Below the pieces are notes generated by a model. The model was given only the letters and a program-made list of their open reading frames with translations, was not told the origin of the DNA and ran no database searches. The translations under genes were made by a program, and so were the position numbers. This document shows positions 5,982 to 38,762 of a DNA stretch of 39,050 bases, in pieces (the stretch's first letter is position 1; each line of letters begins with the position of its first letter). Where the stretch lies: the sequence record OZ035732.1. The stretch is one strand, 5' to 3'. The stretch is from Kayfunavirus PDP351P3.

Positions 5982-8663
5982 ATGAGCGTCATATCTATTG
6001 ACAAACATGACTTCTCTGATGTGTCGAACGCTATTGAGCCGTTTAACCTGCTGGCCGACCACTATGGGCAAGACCTTGCAGTCAAACAGCTTCAGCTTGA
6101 GCATGAGGCATACACTGAAGGCGAGCGACGTTTCATCAAGAACCTTGAGCGACAGACTGAGCGCGGGGAACTGGCAGACAATCAGGTCGCCAAGCCTTTG
6201 ATGCAGACTCTTGTACCTAAGATTGCGCAAGCCGTCAGGGAGTGGCATGAAGGTCCAGACGGGAAGCTGTCAACCTCTCGTCCGAGCGTAGCGTTCACCA
6301 TGTTGAGCACTGAAGAGAAGGTCGTTAAAGACCGCTCTCTACGCATCTCCTGTGAGTCTGCTGCGGTTATCATACTGAAGGTCATCCTCTCCAAGCTTGT
6401 CAAGCCTGAAGGGATACCGATTACACCGATGGCCTCCGCGATAGGCCGTACACTTGAGGATGAAATCCGCTTCGGTCGCATCCGAGACAAGGAGCAGGAG
6501 CACTTCAAGAAGGCGATAGCTGAGAACCTGAACAAGCGAGCCGGCGCATCCTACAAGAAGGCCTACATGCAAGCTGTTGAGACATCCATGCTAGAGCAGG
6601 GTCAACTGGAAGATGCGTGGGGGACTTGGAGTCCGACCGAGGCTGTCCACGTTGGCATCAAGATGCTTGAGATTGTCATCCAGTCAACACAACTGGTCGA
6701 GCTTAAGCGCTACGGTGCTGGCAATGCAGCGGCTGACGTTGAGATGGTCCACCTGTCAGACTTCTGGGTAAAGAAGATGGCACAACGAGGATTCAGCCTT
6801 GCGGGTATCGCTCCGGTCTACCAACCTTGCGTCGTTCCACCTAAGCCGTGGACTGGTGTCGTAGGAGGTGGGTACTGGGCCAAAGGACGCAGACCACTAC
6901 CACTGATTCGCTTAGGGTCTAAGTCTGCGGTGGCACGTTACGAAGACGTGTACATGCCTGAAGTCTATGACGCTGTGAATATCATCCAGAATACGCCTTG
7001 GAAAGTGAACAAGAAGGTTCTGGACGTGGTGAACATGGTCGAGAAGCTGAATAACACGCCTATTGACGACATCCCTCAGATGGAACCACTGAAGCCTGAA
7101 GACTATGCGGGTGAGACTGAAGAGGAACTCAAGGCGTGGAAGAAGGCTGCTGCTGGTATCTACCGCCGAGAGAAGGCCCGGCAGTCACGCAGATTGTCAC
7201 TGAGCTTTATCGTTAACCAAGCGAACAAGTTCTCTCAGTTCAAGGCCATCTGGTTCCCGTACAACATGGACTGGCGAGGTCGCGTCTACGCTGTGCCGAT
7301 GTTCAACCCTCAGGGTAACGACATGCAAAAGGGTCTCCTGACTCTGGCAGTCGGTAAGCCTATTGGTGCTGATGGTTTCAAATGGCTGAAGGTCCACGGT
7401 GCAAACTGCGCGGGTATTGATAAAGTAACCTTCGAGGAGCGCATAAAGTGGGTTGAAGACAACCACGATAACATCATGGCTACCGCTAAGGCACCGATGG
7501 ACAGCATTGAGTGGTGGGGCAAGTTAGACTCTCCGTTCTGCTTCCTTGCGTTCTGCTTCGAGTATGCTGGCGTAATGTACCACGGTTTGTCTTACTCCTG
7601 TTCGCTGCCGATAGCTTTCGATGGGTCCTGCTCTGGGATTCAGCACTTTAGTGCGATGCTTCGTGATCACATCGGTGGACATGCGGTAAACCTGACGCCT
7701 TCCGGTAAGGTCCAAGACATTTACCGCATCGTGTCTGACCGCATTGAGGAGGAGCTTAAAGTCCTGCTGGTTAACGGTACGGATAACGAGATGGTGACTC
7801 ACGAGGACAAGAAAACGGGTGAGATTACCGAGCGTCTCAAGCTGGGGACACGAGAGCTGGCCCGTCAATGGCTGACATACGGTATGTCACGCAAGGTCAC
7901 TAAGCGCTCAGTAATGACTCTGGCCTACGGGTCGAAAGAGTATGGCTTCGCAGACCAAGTGTACGAGGACATCGTGATGCCAGCGATTGACTCAGGGTCT
8001 GGCGCTATGTTCACTGAGCCAAGCCAAGCGTCTCGCTTCATGGCTAAGATGATTTGGGAAGCTGTGAGCGTGACCGTAGTTGCTGCGGTAGACGCTATGA
8101 AGTGGCTTCAAGGTGCCGCCAAGCTGCTGGCTGCTGAAGTGAAGGACAAGAAGACTGGAGAAATCCTTAAGCCTTGCCTTCCGGTACACTGGGTCACACC
8201 TGATGGTTTCCCGGTCTGGCAGGAATACCGCAAGAAGGATACCACTCGTCTTAACCTGATGTTCTTAGGGTCATTCAACCTTCAGCCTACAGTCAATAAA
8301 GGCATGAAGAAAGAGCTGGACAAGCACAAGCAGGAGTCAGGCATTAGCCCGAACTTCGTCCACTCACAAGATGGTAGCCACCTCCGAAAGACTGTAGTCC
8401 ACACACATCGTAAGTACGGAGTGATGTCATTCGCAGTGATTCATGATAGCTTCGGGACCATCCCGGCTGACGCTGAGTATCTATTCCGTGGTGTCCGCGA
8501 GACGATGGTCGAGACCTACCGCGACAACGATGTGCTGCTTGACTTCTACGAGCAGTTTGAATACCAGCTTCATGAGAGCCAGCGCGACAAGCTGCCAGAG
8601 CTTCCGAAGAAAGGTAAACTGAATATCGAAGACATCTTGTCTTCAGACTTTGCATTCGCTTAA
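5982..8663 (+). CDS. single-subunit DNA-directed RNA polymerase (T7 gene 1-like)
   Basis: 893-aa ORF; long colinear identity blocks with recalled T7 RNAP (FPYNMDWRGRVYAV, MFNPQGNDM, DGSCSGIQHFSAMLRD, RSVTKRSVMTLAYGS, HDSFGT, terminal FAFA). Confidence 0.98.
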   Translation: MSVISIDKHDFSDVSNAIEPFNLLADHYGQDLAVKQLQLEHEAYTEGERRFIKNLERQTERGELADNQVAKPLMQTLVPKIAQAVREWHEGPDGKLSTSRPSVAFTMLSTEEKVVKDRSLRISCESAAVIILKVILSKLVKPEGIPITPMASAIGRTLEDEIRFGRIRDKEQEHFKKAIAENLNKRAGASYKKAYMQAVETSMLEQGQLEDAWGTWSPTEAVHVGIKMLEIVIQSTQLVELKRYGAGNAAADVEMVHLSDFWVKKMAQRGFSLAGIAPVYQPCVVPPKPWTGVVGGGYWAKGRRPLPLIRLGSKSAVARYEDVYMPEVYDAVNIIQNTPWKVNKKVLDVVNMVEKLNNTPIDDIPQMEPLKPEDYAGETEEELKAWKKAAAGIYRREKARQSRRLSLSFIVNQANKFSQFKAIWFPYNMDWRGRVYAVPMFNPQGNDMQKGLLTLAVGKPIGADGFKWLKVHGANCAGIDKVTFEERIKWVEDNHDNIMATAKAPMDSIEWWGKLDSPFCFLAFCFEYAGVMYHGLSYSCSLPIAFDGSCSGIQHFSAMLRDHIGGHAVNLTPSGKVQDIYRIVSDRIEEELKVLLVNGTDNEMVTHEDKKTGEITERLKLGTRELARQWLTYGMSRKVTKRSVMTLAYGSKEYGFADQVYEDIVMPAIDSGSGAMFTEPSQASRFMAKMIWEAVSVTVVAAVDAMKWLQGAAKLLAAEVKDKKTGEILKPCLPVHWVTPDGFPVWQEYRKKDTTRLNLMFLGSFNLQPTVNKGMKKELDKHKQESGISPNFVHSQDGSHLRKTVVHTHRKYGVMSFAVIHDSFGTIPADAEYLFRGVRETMVETYRDNDVLLDFYEQFEYQLHESQRDKLPELPKKGKLNIEDILSSDFAFA

Positions 8664-23422: not shown

Positions 23423-23493
23423 AACGTCTGGTCTACAATTTGTAGGTTTCTAGTCCGTTGTTCCTACCATTTCAATCAAAGGAGAATGACTCA

Positions 23494-24378
23494 ATGTCTC
23501 AATCAGTTTATGCCGAGTTCGGCGTTAGCTCTAATGCAATCACTGGTTCCGTTGAGGACCTGAACGAACACCAGAAGTCTATGCTTGAACAGGACGTAGC
23601 GGTTCGCGATGGCGATGATGCTATTACCTTCAAGCAACTGGAAGCCGAAAACGAAGAGGCTACCGAAGAAGACGAGAACGTCGAAGAGACTGAAGGTGAA
23701 GAAGACCACGAGTCAGATGATGAAGAGTCTGAGACAGATGGCGAGCAACCTGAGTTCGTCGAACTTGGTGATGCGCCGAAAGAGCTGACCGAAAGTGTCA
23801 CCGCTCTGGATGAAAACGAAGCTGCATTTGACGACATGGTGTCTTCTGCTGTAGAAGCTGGCAAGGTCACTGCTGATGAAATTACCGCTATCAAGGCTGA
23901 ATACGCCAAGGACGGTAAGTTGTCTGACGCATCCTACGCTAAGTTGCAGGAAGCAGGTTACACCAAGCGTTTCGTAGATTCGTTTGTACGTGGTCAGGAA
24001 GCTCTGGCTGAACAGTATGCTGCTGGCGTGGTACGCTACGCTGGTGGTGCTGAACAGTTTAATCGCATCCTGTCTCACCTTGAGGCCAACGACCCGTCAA
24101 CTCGTGAAGCACTGGAAGCTGCTATCGTTCGTAAGGACATTGCGACTACCAAAGCTCTGCTGAATCTGGCTGGCAAGACTCTTGGTAAAGCTGTGGGCGT
24201 TAAACCTCAGCGTACAATCACCAATCAGGCTAAACCTGTGGTCGCACCTAAGGCTCCTCAGACCGAAGCATTCAGCTCCAAGGCTGATATGATTAAGGCT
24301 ATGAGTGACCCGCGATACCTGCGTGACGCTAAGTACACGATGGAAGTTCGCGCTAAGGTAGCTGCCTCAAGCCTGTAG
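23494..24378 (+). CDS. capsid assembly (scaffolding) protein (T7 gp9-like)
   Basis: ATG 23494 with AAAGGAGAA RBS (track ORF 23458 is an upstream extension); acidic; YAKLQEAGYTK.FVDSFVRGQEAL.EQY, KAMSDPRY..DA.Y match recalled T7 gp9. Confidence 0.9.
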   Translation: MSQSVYAEFGVSSNAITGSVEDLNEHQKSMLEQDVAVRDGDDAITFKQLEAENEEATEEDENVEETEGEEDHESDDEESETDGEQPEFVELGDAPKELTESVTALDENEAAFDDMVSSAVEAGKVTADEITAIKAEYAKDGKLSDASYAKLQEAGYTKRFVDSFVRGQEALAEQYAAGVVRYAGGAEQFNRILSHLEANDPSTREALEAAIVRKDIATTKALLNLAGKTLGKAVGVKPQRTITNQAKPVVAPKAPQTEAFSSKADMIKAMSDPRYLRDAKYTMEVRAKVAASSL

Positions 24379-24379
24379 G

Positions 24380-24402
24380 ACTAAACTATCACTATAGGGA
24401 GA
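24380..24402 (+). promoter_or_regulatory. phage RNAP promoter (phi10-like, strong late promoter)
   Basis: ACTAAACTATCACTATA-GGGAGACC; +1 to +6 GGGAGA identical to T7 class III consensus; about 100-nt leader containing AAACTTTATC (epsilon-enhancer-like) and AGGAGA RBS. Confidence 0.85.
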
Positions 24403-24504
24403 CCAAGAGAAAGACTCAATGTTTCCCTATTACTTCAGTCCATACGGATTGGGCGTACAGTAAGTAATAAACTTTATCTTTCAATCGAATAGGAGAATTA
24501 TCAT

Positions 24505-25548
24505 ATGGCAAACGTTCCGGGTCAGAAAATTGGTACAGACCAAGGTAAAGGCAAATCTAGTTCCGACGCTCTGGCGTTGTTCCTGAAGGTCTTTGCTGGT
24601 GAAGTCCTGACCGCATTCACTCGCCGCTCTGTAACGGCTGACAAGCATATTGTCCGTACCATTCAGAACGGTAAGTCTGCTCAGTTCCCGGTCATGGGTC
24701 GCACCTCTGGTGTGTATCTGGCTCCCGGTGAGCGACTGTCCGATAAGCGTAAAGGTATCAAACATACCGAGAAAGTGATTACCATTGATGGTCTGCTGAC
24801 TGCCGATGTGATGATTTTCGACATTGAAGACGCGATGAATCACTATGACGTGGCTGGCGAGTATTCCAACCAGTTAGGTGAAGCGCTGGCTATCGCCGCT
24901 GATGGTGCGGTTCTGGCTGAAATGGCTATCTTGTGTAACCTCCCTGCCGCTTCCAACGAGAACATCGCTGGTCTGGGCACTGCGTCCGTACTGGAAGTTG
25001 GTAAGAAAGCTGACCTCGATACCCCGGCTAAACTGGGTGAAGCAATCATTGGTCAATTGACCATTGCTCGTGCTAAGCTGACCTCCAACTACGTTCCTGC
25101 TGGCGACCGTTACTTCTACACCACGCCTGACAACTACTCTGCAATCCTCGCGGCTCTGATGCCGAACGCTGCTAACTATGCTGCGCTGATTGATCCAGAG
25201 ACTGGTAACATCCGTAACGTGATGGGCTTCGTTGTTGTTGAAGTTCCGCATCTGGTACAGGGTGGTGCTGGTGAGACTCGTGGTGAAGATGGTATCACTA
25301 TCGCTTCCGGTCAGAAACACGCATTCCCGGCAACTGCTACTGGCGACGTTAAAGTTGCTATGGACAACGTTGTGGGTCTGTTCTCTCACCGTTCCGCTGT
25401 TGGTACTGTGAAGCTGCGTGACTTAGCGCTGGAACGTGACCGTGACGTAGATGCTCAGGGCGACCTGATTGTCGGTAAATACGCTATGGGCCACGGTGGT
25501 CTGCGTCCAGAAGCAGCAGGCGCACTGGTTTTCAGCCCAGCGGCGTAA
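24505..25548 (+). CDS. major capsid protein (T7 gp10A-like)
   Basis: 347 aa; GKSAQFPV.GRT...YLAPGE.L.DKRK.IKHTEKVITIDGLLTADV, DIEDAMNHYDV, ALMPNAANYAALIDPE.G.IRNVMGF.VVEVPHL, SAVGTVKLRDLALER, KYAMGHGGLRPEAAGA match recalled T7 gp10A. Confidence 0.97.
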   Translation: MANVPGQKIGTDQGKGKSSSDALALFLKVFAGEVLTAFTRRSVTADKHIVRTIQNGKSAQFPVMGRTSGVYLAPGERLSDKRKGIKHTEKVITIDGLLTADVMIFDIEDAMNHYDVAGEYSNQLGEALAIAADGAVLAEMAILCNLPAASNENIAGLGTASVLEVGKKADLDTPAKLGEAIIGQLTIARAKLTSNYVPAGDRYFYTTPDNYSAILAALMPNAANYAALIDPETGNIRNVMGFVVVEVPHLVQGGAGETRGEDGITIASGQKHAFPATATGDVKVAMDNVVGLFSHRSAVGTVKLRDLALERDRDVDAQGDLIVGKYAMGHGGLRPEAAGALVFSPAA

Positions 25549-25679
25549 GCACCTTTAGCCAACCTAACGTCGCTACAGTAGCGGCTGCACCTGAAGAGGA
25601 GACCCTAACTCCTCAACAGAAAGCTGCGCGTACTCGTGCTGCGAACAGGGCCGCTAAACTGGCTGAGTCCAACAACTAA
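24505..25679 (+). CDS. minor capsid protein 10B-like product via -1 programmed ribosomal frameshift
   Basis: Slippery heptamer G GTT TTC at 25527-25533 (the T7 gene 10 shift heptamer as I recall it), 5 codons before the 10A stop; -1 frame stays open 48 codons to TAA 25677-25679. Confidence 0.55.
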
Positions 25680-25683
25680 TTGA

Positions 25684-25722
25684 AACCCCTTGGGTGCCTT
25701 CGGGTGCTTGAGGGGTTTTTTG
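25684..25722 (+). terminator. T-phi-like terminator downstream of capsid gene
   Basis: AAACCCCTTGGGTGCCTTCGGGTGCTTGAGGGGTTTTTTG; GC-rich hairpin plus U-tract; 3' half CTTGAGGGGTTTTTTG identical to T7 T-phi as recalled. Confidence 0.8.
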
Positions 25723-25742
25723 CTTAAAGTGAGAGGAGACTT

Positions 25743-26309
25743 ATGGCTCAATACATTCCACTGAATGCTAACGATGACTTAGATGCCATCAACGATATGT
25801 TAGCTGCTATCGGTGAACCAGCAGTCCTACAGCTTGACGAGGGTAACGCTGATGTCTCGAATGCTCAACGTATCCTACATCGTGTCAATCGTCAGGTCCA
25901 AGCTAAAGGATGGAACTTTAACATCAACGAAGCTGCTGTCCTGACACCTGATGTCCAAGACAATAGGATTCGATTCCTACCGTCATACCTTCGTGTAATG
26001 ACTGCCGGGGCCACCAGCTATTATAGCAACATGGGTGGATACCTGTACGACCTGTCCACTCAGTCAACCACTTTCACCGACCCTATAACGGTAGAGCTTG
26101 TTGAGATGAAACCATTCTCTGAGATGCCAGTGGTCTTCAGGGACTACATCGTTACCAAGGCTAGCCGTGAGTTCAACGCTAAGTTCTTCGGTAGCCCAGA
26201 GTCAGAGCTATACCTTCGTGAGCAGGAAGCAGAACTCTATCAGCAGGTTATGGAGTACGAGATGGACACTGGTCGCTACAACATGATGTCTGACATCGGG
26301 AGGGACTAA
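25743..26309 (+). CDS. tail tubular protein A (T7 gp11-like)
   Basis: 188 aa; D.L..IGEP.V..L.EGNAD...A.RIL...NRQ.Q..GW.FNI.E, ASR.FN..FFG.PE, EYEMD.G.YNM match recalled T7 gp11. Confidence 0.9.
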   Translation: MAQYIPLNANDDLDAINDMLAAIGEPAVLQLDEGNADVSNAQRILHRVNRQVQAKGWNFNINEAAVLTPDVQDNRIRFLPSYLRVMTAGATSYYSNMGGYLYDLSTQSTTFTDPITVELVEMKPFSEMPVVFRDYIVTKASREFNAKFFGSPESELYLREQEAELYQQVMEYEMDTGRYNMMSDIGRD

Positions 26310-26536
26310 TGGCTAGTCACAACCTGAAGATTCACCGCCAGCACTTTGGTCCGGTACAACTAGGTCTAAAGACAGCAGAGCTGAGACTTAACGACCGGGA
26401 CTTTAAGGTTGGCGACTGGCTTATTCTGAATGAGTGGGACAACGGGTACACTGGACAACAGGTAGCACGTAAGGTTGTCCACATTGCTGACGTTGGTGAC
26501 ATCGCTGAGGGATACGTCCTAATGAGTATGATTTAA
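26309..26536 (+). CDS. ASCH/DUF3850-like small protein inserted between tail tubular genes
   Basis: 75 aa; H.LKI....F.PV..G.KT.E.R.NDRDFKVGDWLIL.EWD...YTG......V..I.......GYVLMS fits the DUF3850 (ASCH-fold) pattern as I remember it; T7 has no gene here. Confidence 0.6.
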   Translation: MASHNLKIHRQHFGPVQLGLKTAELRLNDRDFKVGDWLILNEWDNGYTGQQVARKVVHIADVGDIAEGYVLMSMI

Positions 26537-36272: not shown

Positions 36273-38762
36273 ATGTCCACGATTACACAATTCCCTTCAG
36301 GAAACACTCAGTACAGGATTGAGTTCGACTACCTATCCAGAACGTTTGTTGTTGTTACTCTGGTGAATAGCTCTAACCTTACCCTGAACCGTGTACTGGA
36401 AGTTGGTCGAGATTACCGATTCCTTAATCCAACGATGATTGAGATGTTGGTTGACCAATCAGGTTTCGACATCGTTCGTATTCACCGTCAGACTGGAACT
36501 GACTTAGTGGTAGACTTCAGGAATGGCTCAGTGTTGACAGCTAGTGACCTGACTAATGCAGAGCTTCAGGCTATCCATATTGCAGAAGAAGGTCGAGACC
36601 AAACGGTTGACTTAGCGAAGGAATATGCCGATGCTGCTAGTAGCTCTGCTGGCAACGCTAAGGATAGCGAGGACGAAGCACGCCGAATCGCTGATAGTAT
36701 CAAGACATCTGGTCAAATTGGCTATATTACCCGCCGCTCCTTCGAGAAAGGCTTCAACGTTACAACATGGAACGAGGTCCTGCTATGGGAAGAGGATGGC
36801 GAATATTACCGTTGGGACGGTGACTTTCCTAAAACCGTACCTGCTGGCTCAACTCCTGAAACTTCAGGTGGAGTTGGTTTAGGTGCATGGGTTAGCGTTG
36901 GTGATGCGTCACTTAGAGGGCAAATATCTTCTAAATACGGATTATCAATTATTGGTGGGTTTGAATCAGTAGATGATATGAGATCCTATTCATCAGTTGC
37001 AAGTTTGCCAGACGGCACAAGGGCTTTCTTGTTTAGTTTTTATGCCGGGAAAAGCATTGGTGGAGGTATATTTCAATGGCACAGTAACGCAACAACTGAT
37101 GATGATGGCTTCTCTGTTATTAAACCATCAGCTGTTTCAGGAGCAGGTCGATGGATTAACATTAAACGTGGCAGACTAACCCCGGAAGAATGTGGGTGCG
37201 TACCTAATGACCCATCATTTGACAACGGCGTACCGCTTAATAGATGGGCGTCACAGCAGCATTGTATAGGTTCCGTTGGCGTCTTTTATAAAACAACTGC
37301 TTTAATTCCGTCACCGCCAGCGTACCCACAGTATATAGACGCTAAAGGCATGAGGCTGATGACTACTGTGGCTGACGTAAATGGGGTGGAACTCTCCTCT
37401 GATATGTCTCGACGTATCAATATTGAGGGTCTTGAGTCGTTCGGTGACCCGTCATTAACAGTAACGAATCGCAATAAAGCCAACGGCTTCTATATCGCTG
37501 GCTGTAGGGAAGTAGTCCTAAAAAACATTCGCTGTGAGGGATGGAAAAACGCTGGTGTCTGGTGGTTTGAAGTCAACAATATGACTATCGACGGATTTAT
37601 TGGATGGAGAAATGATTGGGATGGTTCCACACTATTCTCCTCTGGTGGGGATTTAGTTGAATGGACTTCGAGCGACGGGTTGGCGAAATCCTGCAGTATA
37701 ACTAATTTCGCGTGTTTTTCAGATGGCAGCCAAAGCATATCCATAAACTCATTATCTTTTGGGCGAAATGTACTAATCAGTAACGGACGCTGTTTCACGT
37801 ATGACGCTACAGATTTTACACCAAAAACTCGGACTAACATAAAAGCACGACATGGAATCACGATAGGTTACAACTCCAACCAGACGTATGGTGGTGGTGT
37901 TAAAGTTAGTAACGTCATTATCAGAGATAAGGGGTGGACTGGCATTTGCCGCTCTGGTGGTTTAGATGGCGCTGTACGATATCAACCAGCTACCATTTCT
38001 AACGTTTCAGTGTACGATTGCGGTTTTGGTATAAACCAAGACAACATTGGTGCTGGTATTCTGTTTGGTGACGTAGTTGACGGAGACATGATCAACAACT
38101 GTTATGTGGAAGGTTTCGCCAACGCTAATAACGGTGCGTACAAAATTCAGGATTCTGTAGGTACAGGGAAGCTGACAATAGCTAACTGTGTTGATAAAGG
38201 TTCTGCTGGATACGGTGTACACATAGCGACAGAATCGGTTAACGTAATGGTTATCGGCCACAGAAGCATAGAACCAACCGGTGCAGGTATTTTCCTTGAG
38301 GCAAAAGGCGGCGCAACACTATTCCGGTCGCATACTGTTGACGGATGTCGTATTGAGCGTGTGACGGACGGTTACGGAATATTTTTGTCTAACGGCGTAA
38401 TTAGTGCGAATATCAAAAACAATGAAATCCGTGGTACTTCTACGAACTCCACAACAAACTGTGCTATTCGTGTAAACCAAAATGGGCAAAACATAAATAT
38501 CAGAGGAAATCAGATTTACGGTTTTGCATACGGGTTGTGGTACAACACCTATGTGAACACCACAACGGTATTCCCGTGGGGTAACAACCAATTCTTCGGC
38601 TGCATTAACGCACACCGTTTCGCAAGGACGACAGGAACCAGTGTTGCTAAGGTAGAACCTAATTATTACGACGGCGCTACTACAAATCAATTCTCTAATG
38701 GTGGCGTAGGAACGAGTAACGGAACGGAAGAATTTAGAGTTAATGGCACTCCCGTGACCTAA
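36273..38762 (+). CDS. tailspike: T7 gp17-like N-terminal tail-attachment domain fused to a parallel beta-helix (putative polysaccharide depolymerase) module
   Basis: 829 aa; residues 1-150 resemble recalled T7 gp17 N-terminus (EFDYLSR.FVVVTL, DYRF, LVDF.NGS.L.A.DL..A.LQ..H.AEE.RD); remainder has beta-helix-type repeats (NNCYVEGF, NNEIRGTS, IRGNQIYG) and is AT-richer than the rest of the genome. Confidence 0.9.
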   Translation: MSTITQFPSGNTQYRIEFDYLSRTFVVVTLVNSSNLTLNRVLEVGRDYRFLNPTMIEMLVDQSGFDIVRIHRQTGTDLVVDFRNGSVLTASDLTNAELQAIHIAEEGRDQTVDLAKEYADAASSSAGNAKDSEDEARRIADSIKTSGQIGYITRRSFEKGFNVTTWNEVLLWEEDGEYYRWDGDFPKTVPAGSTPETSGGVGLGAWVSVGDASLRGQISSKYGLSIIGGFESVDDMRSYSSVASLPDGTRAFLFSFYAGKSIGGGIFQWHSNATTDDDGFSVIKPSAVSGAGRWINIKRGRLTPEECGCVPNDPSFDNGVPLNRWASQQHCIGSVGVFYKTTALIPSPPAYPQYIDAKGMRLMTTVADVNGVELSSDMSRRINIEGLESFGDPSLTVTNRNKANGFYIAGCREVVLKNIRCEGWKNAGVWWFEVNNMTIDGFIGWRNDWDGSTLFSSGGDLVEWTSSDGLAKSCSITNFACFSDGSQSISINSLSFGRNVLISNGRCFTYDATDFTPKTRTNIKARHGITIGYNSNQTYGGGVKVSNVIIRDKGWTGICRSGGLDGAVRYQPATISNVSVYDCGFGINQDNIGAGILFGDVVDGDMINNCYVEGFANANNGAYKIQDSVGTGKLTIANCVDKGSAGYGVHIATESVNVMVIGHRSIEPTGAGIFLEAKGGATLFRSHTVDGCRIERVTDGYGIFLSNGVISANIKNNEIRGTSTNSTTNCAIRVNQNGQNINIRGNQIYGFAYGLWYNTYVNTTTVFPWGNNQFFGCINAHRFARTTGTSVAKVEPNYYDGATTNQFSNGGVGTSNGTEEFRVNGTPVT

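What the first reader, a model, noticed from the sequence alone, without database searches (positions are those of the whole stretch)
25527..25679. Conserved -1 programmed frameshift site at the end of the capsid gene
The heptamer G GTT TTC (25527-25533) lies 5 codons before the 10A stop. It is the same heptamer I recall for T7 gene 10. The -1 frame stays open for 48 codons to a TAA at 25677, immediately before the T-phi-like terminator. This would give a C-terminally extended minor capsid protein.
Basis: partly seen in the sequence, partly recalled or inferred. Interest (0 to 1): 0.45.

Follow-up and report, generated by a model that had tools for sequence, protein, structure and literature searches.

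The report
T7-type capsid gene frameshift site
The window is a K1F-like (Kayfunavirus) relative of phage T7, and the flagged site is the well-known -1 ribosomal frameshift at the end of capsid gene 10 that makes a longer minor capsid protein (10B); it is real but ordinary and already described.

Summary
G_GTT_TTC lies at 25527-25533 in register with capsid gene 10A (24505-25548). The -1 frame then runs 48 codons to TAA 25677-25679, 2 nt before a 17-bp terminator hairpin. Heptamer count and ORF length are not above chance; the comparative evidence is what counts. The -1 stretch has no start codon. It is 64% identical to the T7 gp10B tail (E 2e-11). It evolves under purifying selection only in the -1 frame (pN/pS 0.06-0.24, against above 1 in the other frames). 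Across non-redundant capsid loci, 30 of 31 with the heptamer carry a conserved -1 extension. Among Val-Phe loci with no extension, 1 of 20 uses GTT TTC, and that one has a 1-nt deletion. The predicted products are 10A (347 aa, 36.3 kDa) and 10B (391 aa, 40.9 kDa). The 48-residue tail is identical in protein sequence to that of phage K1F, where gene 10b is published as a -1 frameshift product and used for capsid display. The EcoDS1 record annotates the same region. Verdict: a real, already known feature. The RNA stimulator stays unresolved, as in T7. No frameshift product was measured for this phage.

The parts
24384..24406 (+). Phage RNA-polymerase promoter upstream of gene 10 (phi10 equivalent)
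   Evidence: AACTATCACTATAGGGAGA is one of 11 such sites, all on the + strand, against 0.83 expected. The EcoDS1 record annotates the homologous position as a promoter.
24505..25548 (+). Gene 10A, major capsid protein, 347 aa, 36.3 kDa
   Evidence: ORF. Pfam PF21703 Gp10A-like, E 2.5e-105, covers residues 60-342 and so ends at the shift site. It matches PDB chains of T7-like capsids.
25527..25533 (+). Slippery heptamer G_GTT_TTC (codons Val342, Phe343), the -1 shift site
   Evidence: In register with 10A. Identical to the T7 site. Present in every sampled locus with capsid identity of 82% or more, and in all 12 loci with the T7-type tail.
25533..25679 (+). 10B-specific coding region in the -1 frame: 48 codons plus TAA. 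The 10B product is 24505-25533 joined to 25533-25679, 391 aa, 40.9 kDa
   Evidence: Translation. No start codon in the open -1 stretch 25479-25676. pN/pS 0.06-0.24 in this frame only. Homology to the T7 10B tail. AlphaFold2 predicts 26 residues without regular structure, then a helix at residues 27-47.
25539..25574 (+). Candidate local stem, 8 bp (25539-25546 with 25567-25574), starting 5 nt after the heptamer. Unproven
   Evidence: Present in the 199-nt minimum-energy fold. 98% of cells pair across 7 distinct relatives, but with no double compensatory change, and K1F carries a mismatch. The local fold is no better than shuffles (z +0.56 and -0.21).
25682..25721 (+). T-phi-like intrinsic terminator: 17-bp stem, UUCG loop, U-run. 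CCCC in the 5' arm at 25686-25689
   Evidence: -25.2 kcal/mol, z -4.5. Aligns with T7 T-phi. EcoDS1 annotates the homologous region as a terminator. In T7 a CCCC in this terminator is reported to be involved in frameshifting (PMC5009743).

Best explanation
This is the gene 10A/10B -1 programmed ribosomal frameshift of T7-like phages, in a Kayfunavirus (K1F-like) genome. Most ribosomes translate 10A (347 aa) and stop at TAA 25546. A minority slip one base back while tRNA-Val and tRNA-Phe decode GUU UUC. The A-site Phe tRNA re-pairs fully with UUU and the P-site Val tRNA re-pairs partly with GGU. These ribosomes then read CAG CCC AGC and onward for 48 codons to TAA 25677, at the foot of the terminator. 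The product, 10B (391 aa), has the complete capsid fold plus a linker of about 26 residues and a basic helix (PQQKAARTRAANRAAKLAESN) at the C-terminus. It is inferred to co-assemble with 10A as a minor, surface-exposed capsid species. Shown here: the anatomy, the protein-coding constraint in the -1 frame, the lack of an independent start, and the link between slippery site and extension. Inferred from relatives: the slip really occurs, its rate is of the order of the ~10% reported for T7, and 10B is incorporated into capsids. Not resolved: which RNA element stimulates the slip.
For: Register and coordinates. Same heptamer at the same place in T7, where 10B is annotated as a joined CDS. G_GU U_UUC is the documented T7 site: PMC5009743. 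The 10B tail is homologous to T7's (E 2e-11). Nei-Gojobori pN/pS over the 20-codon block LTPQQKAARTRAANRAAKLA, comparing the window, L009, L031 and T7: 0.06-0.24 in the -1 frame, 2.8-5.3 in the 10A frame, above 1.1 in the +1 frame. No ATG, GTG or TTG in the 66-codon open -1 stretch. Of the non-redundant loci, 30 of 31 with G_GTT_TTY carry a long or conserved -1 extension, against 2 of 28 with no slippery motif; Fisher p 1.4e-8 on the 68 loci that could be anchored. Among Val-Phe loci, 30 of 36 with an extension use GTT TTC, against 1 of 20 without. The K1F tail is identical in protein sequence. K1F gene 10b is published as a -1 frameshift adding 44 residues, and C-terminal fusions to it yield viable display phages. 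The EcoDS1 record carries 'may be translated via slippery sequence' and 'region of similarity to gp10B'. In Kvp1, mass spectrometry found peptides unique to the 10B C-terminus, and the authors place the shift at TTTTCA.
Against: There is no direct measurement for this phage. The heptamer count and the open-frame length are at chance level on their own. No significant local stimulatory structure lies 3' of the site (z +0.56 and -0.21). The candidate 8-bp stem has no compensatory support and is mismatched in K1F. No Rfam family matches. The 20-codon block used for pN/pS was chosen because it aligns well, which favours low pN, although it does not explain the frame specificity.
Confidence: 0.93

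Rival explanations
1. Inherited relic: the heptamer and the open -1 frame are kept only because the phage is a recent relative of K1F and T7, and no frameshift product is made or selected for in this lineage.
For: Close relatives are 96-97% identical in DNA, so identity among them is uninformative. One relative, L008, has a 1-nt deletion that breaks the -1 reading. One K1F preprint describes the minor capsid protein as non-essential.
Against: Frame-specific purifying selection holds across deep divergence: capsid identity is 71-75% to T7 and L031. Synonymous GTT is lost in lineages without an extension. The identical tail in K1F is reported to be expressed and displayed.
Confidence: 0.04
2. 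The region after the 10A stop is a non-coding 3' UTR, conserved for RNA reasons such as mRNA stability or terminator function. The open frame would then be incidental.
For: The 199-nt stretch folds better than shuffles (z -3.9). The terminator is strongly conserved.
Against: The z-score comes from the terminator hairpin; the stretch without it scores z +0.56. Substitutions between lineages fall on third positions of the -1 frame. The extension is swapped for Big_2 protein domains in relatives that share the slippery site.
Confidence: 0.02
3. The extended protein arises by another route: an independently initiated small ORF, stop-codon readthrough, or transcriptional slippage on the T-run.
For: None specific. 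These are the generic alternatives for making an extended product.
Against: No start codon exists in the open -1 stretch. In the zero frame, a TAG lies 10 codons after the TAA and the conserved peptide is not in that frame. A run of four T is far shorter than the homopolymer runs known to support polymerase slippage (established knowledge, not tested here).
Confidence: 0.01

Closest known systems
Phage K1F gene 10 / gene 10b (Kayfunavirus K1F) and the EcoDS1 gp10A annotation
   Same: Same genus-level group, 96% DNA identity over the region. Same heptamer, same register, same net gain of 44 residues. The 10B-specific tail is identical in protein sequence. The terminator is near-identical, differing only in U-run length in some relatives including K1F. 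K1F 10b is published as a -1 frameshift product used for display. EcoDS1 annotates the slippery sequence and the gp10B-like region.
   Different: A few synonymous and one or two non-synonymous differences near the 10A stop; for example, K1F has GAG where the window has GCG. The genome overall is about 95% identical over 90% to the nearest record, so it is a distinct isolate or species.
Phage T7 gene 10A/10B frameshift (Condron, Atkins and Gesteland 1991, as cited in PMC5009743 and PMC1635266)
   Same: Identical heptamer G_GUU_UUC a few codons before the 10A stop. The -1 extension ends just upstream of T-phi. It shares the motif ETLTPxQxAARTRAAN. T7 shifts in about 10% of translations.
   Different: The T7 extension is longer (56 codons after the shift against 48) and its first half differs. 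T7 has a GGGGG run and a moderate stem-loop 3' of the site; the window has neither. The capsids are about 71% identical.
T3 / phiYeO3-12 type capsid frameshift with an Ig-like extension
   Same: [quoted passage not shown]
   Different: These phages shift at a lysine codon; the A_AAG motif is seen in 12 sampled loci. They add a Big_2 or Ig-like domain of about 88 residues rather than a linker plus helix.

Membership tests
T7-type gene 10A/10B -1 programmed ribosomal frameshift | Slippery heptamer G_GUU_UUC in the zero-frame register, near the 3' end of a Gp10A-family capsid gene | tested here: met
   25527-25533 with codons CTG GTT TTC. Pfam Gp10A-like, E 2.5e-105. Identical to the T7 site.
T7-type gene 10A/10B -1 programmed ribosomal frameshift | A -1 frame that is open from the site and encodes a 10B-specific tail homologous to that of T7 | tested here: met
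   48 codons to TAA 25677. 64% identity over 36 aa to the T7 10B tail, E 2e-11.
T7-type gene 10A/10B -1 programmed ribosomal frameshift | The extension is under protein-coding selection and has no initiation codon of its own | tested here: met
   pN/pS 0.06-0.24 in the -1 frame only. No ATG, GTG or TTG in 25479-25676.
T7-type gene 10A/10B -1 programmed ribosomal frameshift | The slippery site is conserved beyond what the protein sequence requires, and it co-occurs with an extension | tested here: met
   Among Val-Phe loci, GTT TTC is used in 30 of 36 with an extension and 1 of 20 without. Fisher p 1.4e-8, not corrected for phylogeny.
T7-type gene 10A/10B -1 programmed ribosomal frameshift | A distal 3' element in the T-phi terminator (CCCC) that contributes to frameshifting | tested here: inconclusive
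   The T-phi-like hairpin with CCCC at 25686-25689 is present and conserved. Its role in frameshifting cannot be tested by sequence analysis. The T7 requirement is taken from PMC5009743.
T7-type gene 10A/10B -1 programmed ribosomal frameshift | Two capsid species (10A and a larger 10B) are made and assembled into virions | not testable with these tools
   Reported for T7, Kvp1 by mass spectrometry and K1F through display fusions. Not measured for this genome.
Canonical X_XXY_YYZ site with a nearby stem-loop or pseudoknot stimulator (dnaX or IS911 type) | A stable structure 5-9 nt 3' of the heptamer, supported by covariation | tested here: inconclusive
   An 8-bp stem starts 5 nt downstream, but the local fold has z +0.56 and -0.21. 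There is no double compensatory change, and K1F has a mismatch. No Rfam hit.

The most novel reading that the evidence does not exclude
The K1F-type clade may frameshift without any nearby stimulatory RNA structure, depending only on the heptamer plus a long-range contribution from the terminator about 150 nt downstream. Sister lineages (L009, L031, L027, T7) have a stem-loop 4-6 nt after the same heptamer. If so, one shift site would be driven by different stimulators in close relatives. Separately, the basic helix AARTRAAN, conserved from T7 to Kayfunavirus, may have a specific and still unknown function. In otherwise 94-98% identical capsids it is exchanged for a different domain of about 88 residues.
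Probability: 0.25. Interest if true: 0.35.

Novelty: already known. Interest (0 to 1): 0.1.

Why it matters
The main value is for annotation. Gene callers report only the 347-aa 10A product. Some pipelines then mislabel it 'minor capsid protein' (the PRF-SP2 record; PDB 9vvq). The correct annotation for this genome is a second, joined CDS: 24505..25533 and 25533..25679. The end of 10B is also a proven insertion point for capsid display in K1F. Because the tail here is identical in protein sequence, the same engineering should transfer to this phage. The finding opens no new biological question.

Tried and rejected
- A tblastn search of the 48-aa tail against the phage collection found nothing. 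The low-complexity filter probably masked this Ala-rich peptide, so the result says nothing either way. Relatives were found through the capsid protein instead.
- Rfam, at a permissive E-value on 24300-25800, gave no match.
- The tail has no Pfam family.
- Enrichment of the heptamer and the length of the -1 ORF were tested as evidence in their own right and rejected; both are at chance level.
- A local stem-loop stimulator was sought by folding and pair counting, with an inconclusive result.
- The primary T7 papers (PMC209055, PMC328964, PMC5952207) are not held in the library. T7 facts are therefore cited through PMC5009743 and PMC1635266.
- Two Python attempts at the codon table failed (misaligned, one search had a regex off by one). 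One search is the corrected version.
- Independent initiation, readthrough and transcriptional slippage were considered and rejected; see the rival explanations.

Full report
**What the window is.**
- The 39,050-base window is a complete, circularly permuted genome of a T7-like podophage.
- Pfam identifies the terminase at 1182-2945, the single-subunit RNA polymerase at 5982-8663, and the gene 9 scaffold at 23458-24378.
- Gene 10, the capsid gene, lies at 24505-25548 (Pfam Gp10A-like, E 2.5e-105). Gene 11, tail tube A, lies at 25743-26309.
- Eleven phage-promoter-like sites (AACTATCACTATAGG) all lie on the + strand, against 0.83 expected. One lies just upstream of gene 10.
- The gene 10 region is 96-97% identical to Kayfunavirus phages such as K1F, EcoDS1, SH3 and ST31.
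- The first 24 kb match the nearest record at 94.8% identity over 90% of their length. The phage is therefore a distinct Kayfunavirus.

**Checking the observation.**
- GGTTTTC is at 25527-25533. Gene 10A starts at 24505, so the zero-frame codons are CTG GTT TTC, giving the register G_GTT_TTC.
- TTC is followed by AGC CCA GCG GCG and then TAA at 25546-25548.
- After a -1 slip the next codon is CAG at 25533. Forty-eight sense codons follow, to TAA at 25677-25679.
- Two bases later a 17-bp hairpin begins (25682-25719), with a UUCG loop and a U-run. Its energy is -25.2 kcal/mol, z -4.5.
- T7 carries the same heptamer three sense codons before its 10A stop.
- On their own, however, they are not above chance. 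The heptamer occurs 4 times in the window against 4.0 expected.
- Also, 6.5% of 50-codon off-frame windows in this genome are open, as are 20% of shuffles of the stretch.

**Evidence that the -1 frame is translated.**
- The open -1 stretch (25479-25676, 66 codons) contains no ATG, GTG or TTG. It cannot be an independent gene.
- The peptide QPSGVSTFSQPNVATVAAAPEEETLTPQQKAARTRAANRAAKLAESNN aligns with the T7 gp10B-specific tail at 64% identity over 36 residues, E 2e-11.
- I compared the alignable 20-codon block between the window, two more distant phages (L009, L031) and T7. Nei-Gojobori pN/pS is 0.06-0.24 in the -1 frame, 2.8-5.3 in the 10A frame, and above 1.1 in the +1 frame.
- Most differences are therefore synonymous third-position changes in the -1 frame.
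- The block was chosen because it aligns, which biases pN downward. That does not explain why only one frame shows the pattern.

**Evidence that the heptamer is the functional site.**
- I fetched 78 capsid loci from IMG/VR and added K1F, EcoDS1, PRF-SP2 and T7.
- Of the 71 non-redundant loci, 30 of 31 with an in-register G_GTT_TTC or G_GTT_TTT have a long or conserved -1 extension. Twelve carry the T7-type tail and 18 a longer domain.
- Of the 28 loci with no slippery motif, only 2 have such an extension. Both read C_GTT_TTC.
- Twelve loci carry A_AAG instead, the lysine-codon site reported for T3 and phiYeO3-12.
- Among loci that encode Val-Phe at these two positions, GTT TTC is used in 30 of 36 with an extension.
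- It is used in only 1 of 20 without an extension, where GTC TTC dominates. Fisher p is 1.4e-8, not corrected for phylogeny.
- The single exception, L008, has a 1-nt deletion just after the site.
- This is a constraint on a synonymous codon that exists only where there is something to shift into.

**What is made.**
- 10A is 347 aa and 36.3 kDa. 10B is 343 + 48 = 391 aa and 40.9 kDa, a net gain of 44 residues.
- The Pfam capsid domain ends at residue 342, which is the shift site.
- AlphaFold2, run on the tail alone, predicts about 26 residues without regular structure and then a helix at residues 27-47, with pLDDT 80-92.
- The added piece is thus a flexible linker plus a basic helix on the capsid C-terminus.

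**Mechanism.**
- The A-site tRNA-Phe can re-pair fully (UUC to UUU). The P-site tRNA-Val re-pairs partly (GUU to GGU). This is the documented behaviour of the T7 site (PMC5009743).
- In T7 the shift occurs in about 10% of translations (PMC1635266). A CCCC in the terminator, over 200 nt downstream, is reported to be involved.
- Here the homologous terminator and its CCCC (25686-25689) are conserved, about 150 nt downstream.
- I found no convincing local stimulator. The 77 nt after the site fold no better than shuffles (z +0.56).
- An 8-bp stem starting 5 nt downstream (25539-25546 with 25567-25574) appears in the 199-nt fold. It pairs in 98% of cells across relatives.
- That stem has only one-sided changes, and K1F carries a mismatch in it.
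- T7, L009, L031 and L027 do have stem-loops starting 4-6 nt after the heptamer, with z from -1.0 to -2.8.
- Rfam has no matching family. The stimulator remains open, as it does for T7.

**Rival explanations.**
- A relic without function is contradicted by frame-specific selection across deep divergence and by loss of GTT where no extension exists.
- A conserved non-coding RNA is contradicted by the third-position substitution pattern, by the lack of structure outside the terminator, and by the replacement of this stretch with Big_2 protein domains in relatives that share the site.
- Independent initiation is excluded by the absence of start codons.
- Readthrough is excluded because the zero frame hits TAG after 10 codons and is not the conserved frame.
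- Transcriptional slippage is unlikely on a run of four T. This rests on established knowledge and was not tested.

**Comparison with what is known.**
- The feature meets every sequence-level criterion of the T7 gene 10A/10B frameshift. See the membership table.
- The 10B tail is identical in protein sequence to that of K1F.
- The K1F literature states that gene 10 undergoes a -1 frameshift adding 44 triplets to give the minor capsid protein.
- GFP, SpyTag and Ig-like domains fused to the end of K1F 10b give viable phages that display them (PMC6277420; PMC13370021; bioRxiv 10.1101/2024.10.11.617866).
- The EcoDS1 GenBank record annotates 'may be translated via slippery sequence' and 'region of similarity to gp10B' at the homologous position.
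- In Kvp1, mass spectrometry found peptides unique to the 10B C-terminus, and the authors place the shift at TTTTCA (PMC2579914).

**Verdict.**
- The finding is real and correctly interpreted, but already known. Interest is low (0.1).
- Its practical use is annotation. This genome should carry a joined 10B CDS, 24505..25533 and 25533..25679.
- The 347-aa product should be named the major capsid protein, not the minor one.

Noticed in passing
L057 2-982 and downstream; L041 241-1266 and downstream (IMG/VR 3300034127_000003 and 3300034349_000001): Two metagenomic T7-like capsid genes end with G_GTT_TTT, and the -1 frame then stays open for 400 codons. The extension is a Big_2 domain (Pfam E 9e-12) followed by about 313 residues with no Pfam or PDB match. 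By eye it has GDS, GTNN and DGTH motifs reminiscent of SGNH hydrolases. If it is made by frameshifting, it would be an unusually large capsid decoration, possibly enzymatic.
   Followed up: partly
L010, L012-L022, L073, L074 (IMG/VR loci), just after the capsid match at about 2222-2510: Capsids 94-98% identical to the window's keep the same heptamer but carry a different -1 extension of about 88 residues (…DVTDWSLL…SRRTNSLYFKA…). A representative of this extension (L073) has no Pfam hit. The switch point lies at or within a few codons of the shift site, which suggests modular exchange of capsid decorations by recombination there.
   Followed up: partly
L008 about 2241 (IMG/VR 2974615076_000001): A 1-nt deletion (TAAG to TAG) at the 10A stop puts the otherwise intact K1F-type extension in the +1 frame, so a -1 shift gives only 11 more codons. 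This is either a sequencing error or a natural loss of 10B.
   Followed up: no
window 26309-26536 (+): A 75-aa ORF lies between genes 11 and 12. Its ATG overlaps the gene 11 stop (ATGA). It matches Pfam DUF3850 (E 1.9e-19) and ASCH (E 1.4e-5). It is a small accessory gene inside the structural module, of unknown role.
   Followed up: partly
L002 426-1469 (OM867676 PRF-SP2); PDB 9vvq: The 347-aa product, which has the length of 10A, is labelled 'minor capsid protein' or 'minor capsid protein 10B' in several Salmonella Kayfunavirus records and in a PDB entry. This looks like an annotation-pipeline mislabel; none of these records annotates the joined 10B CDS.
   Followed up: no
L009 2223-2296; L031 2223-2296; L027 2190-2263; L004 (T7) 1187-1260: These lineages have stem-loops starting 4-6 nt after the same heptamer (z -1.0 to -2.8). 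In T7, L009 and L031 the outer stem contains the 10A stop codon. L009 and L031 share the architecture despite sequence differences. The window's clade lacks a comparable structure.
   Followed up: partly
window 1-39050: The window is a whole T7-like genome, permuted so that the terminase gene (1182-2945) comes first. The tailspike (36273-38762) has a T7 tail-fibre N-terminal domain plus a beta-helix domain.
   Followed up: partly
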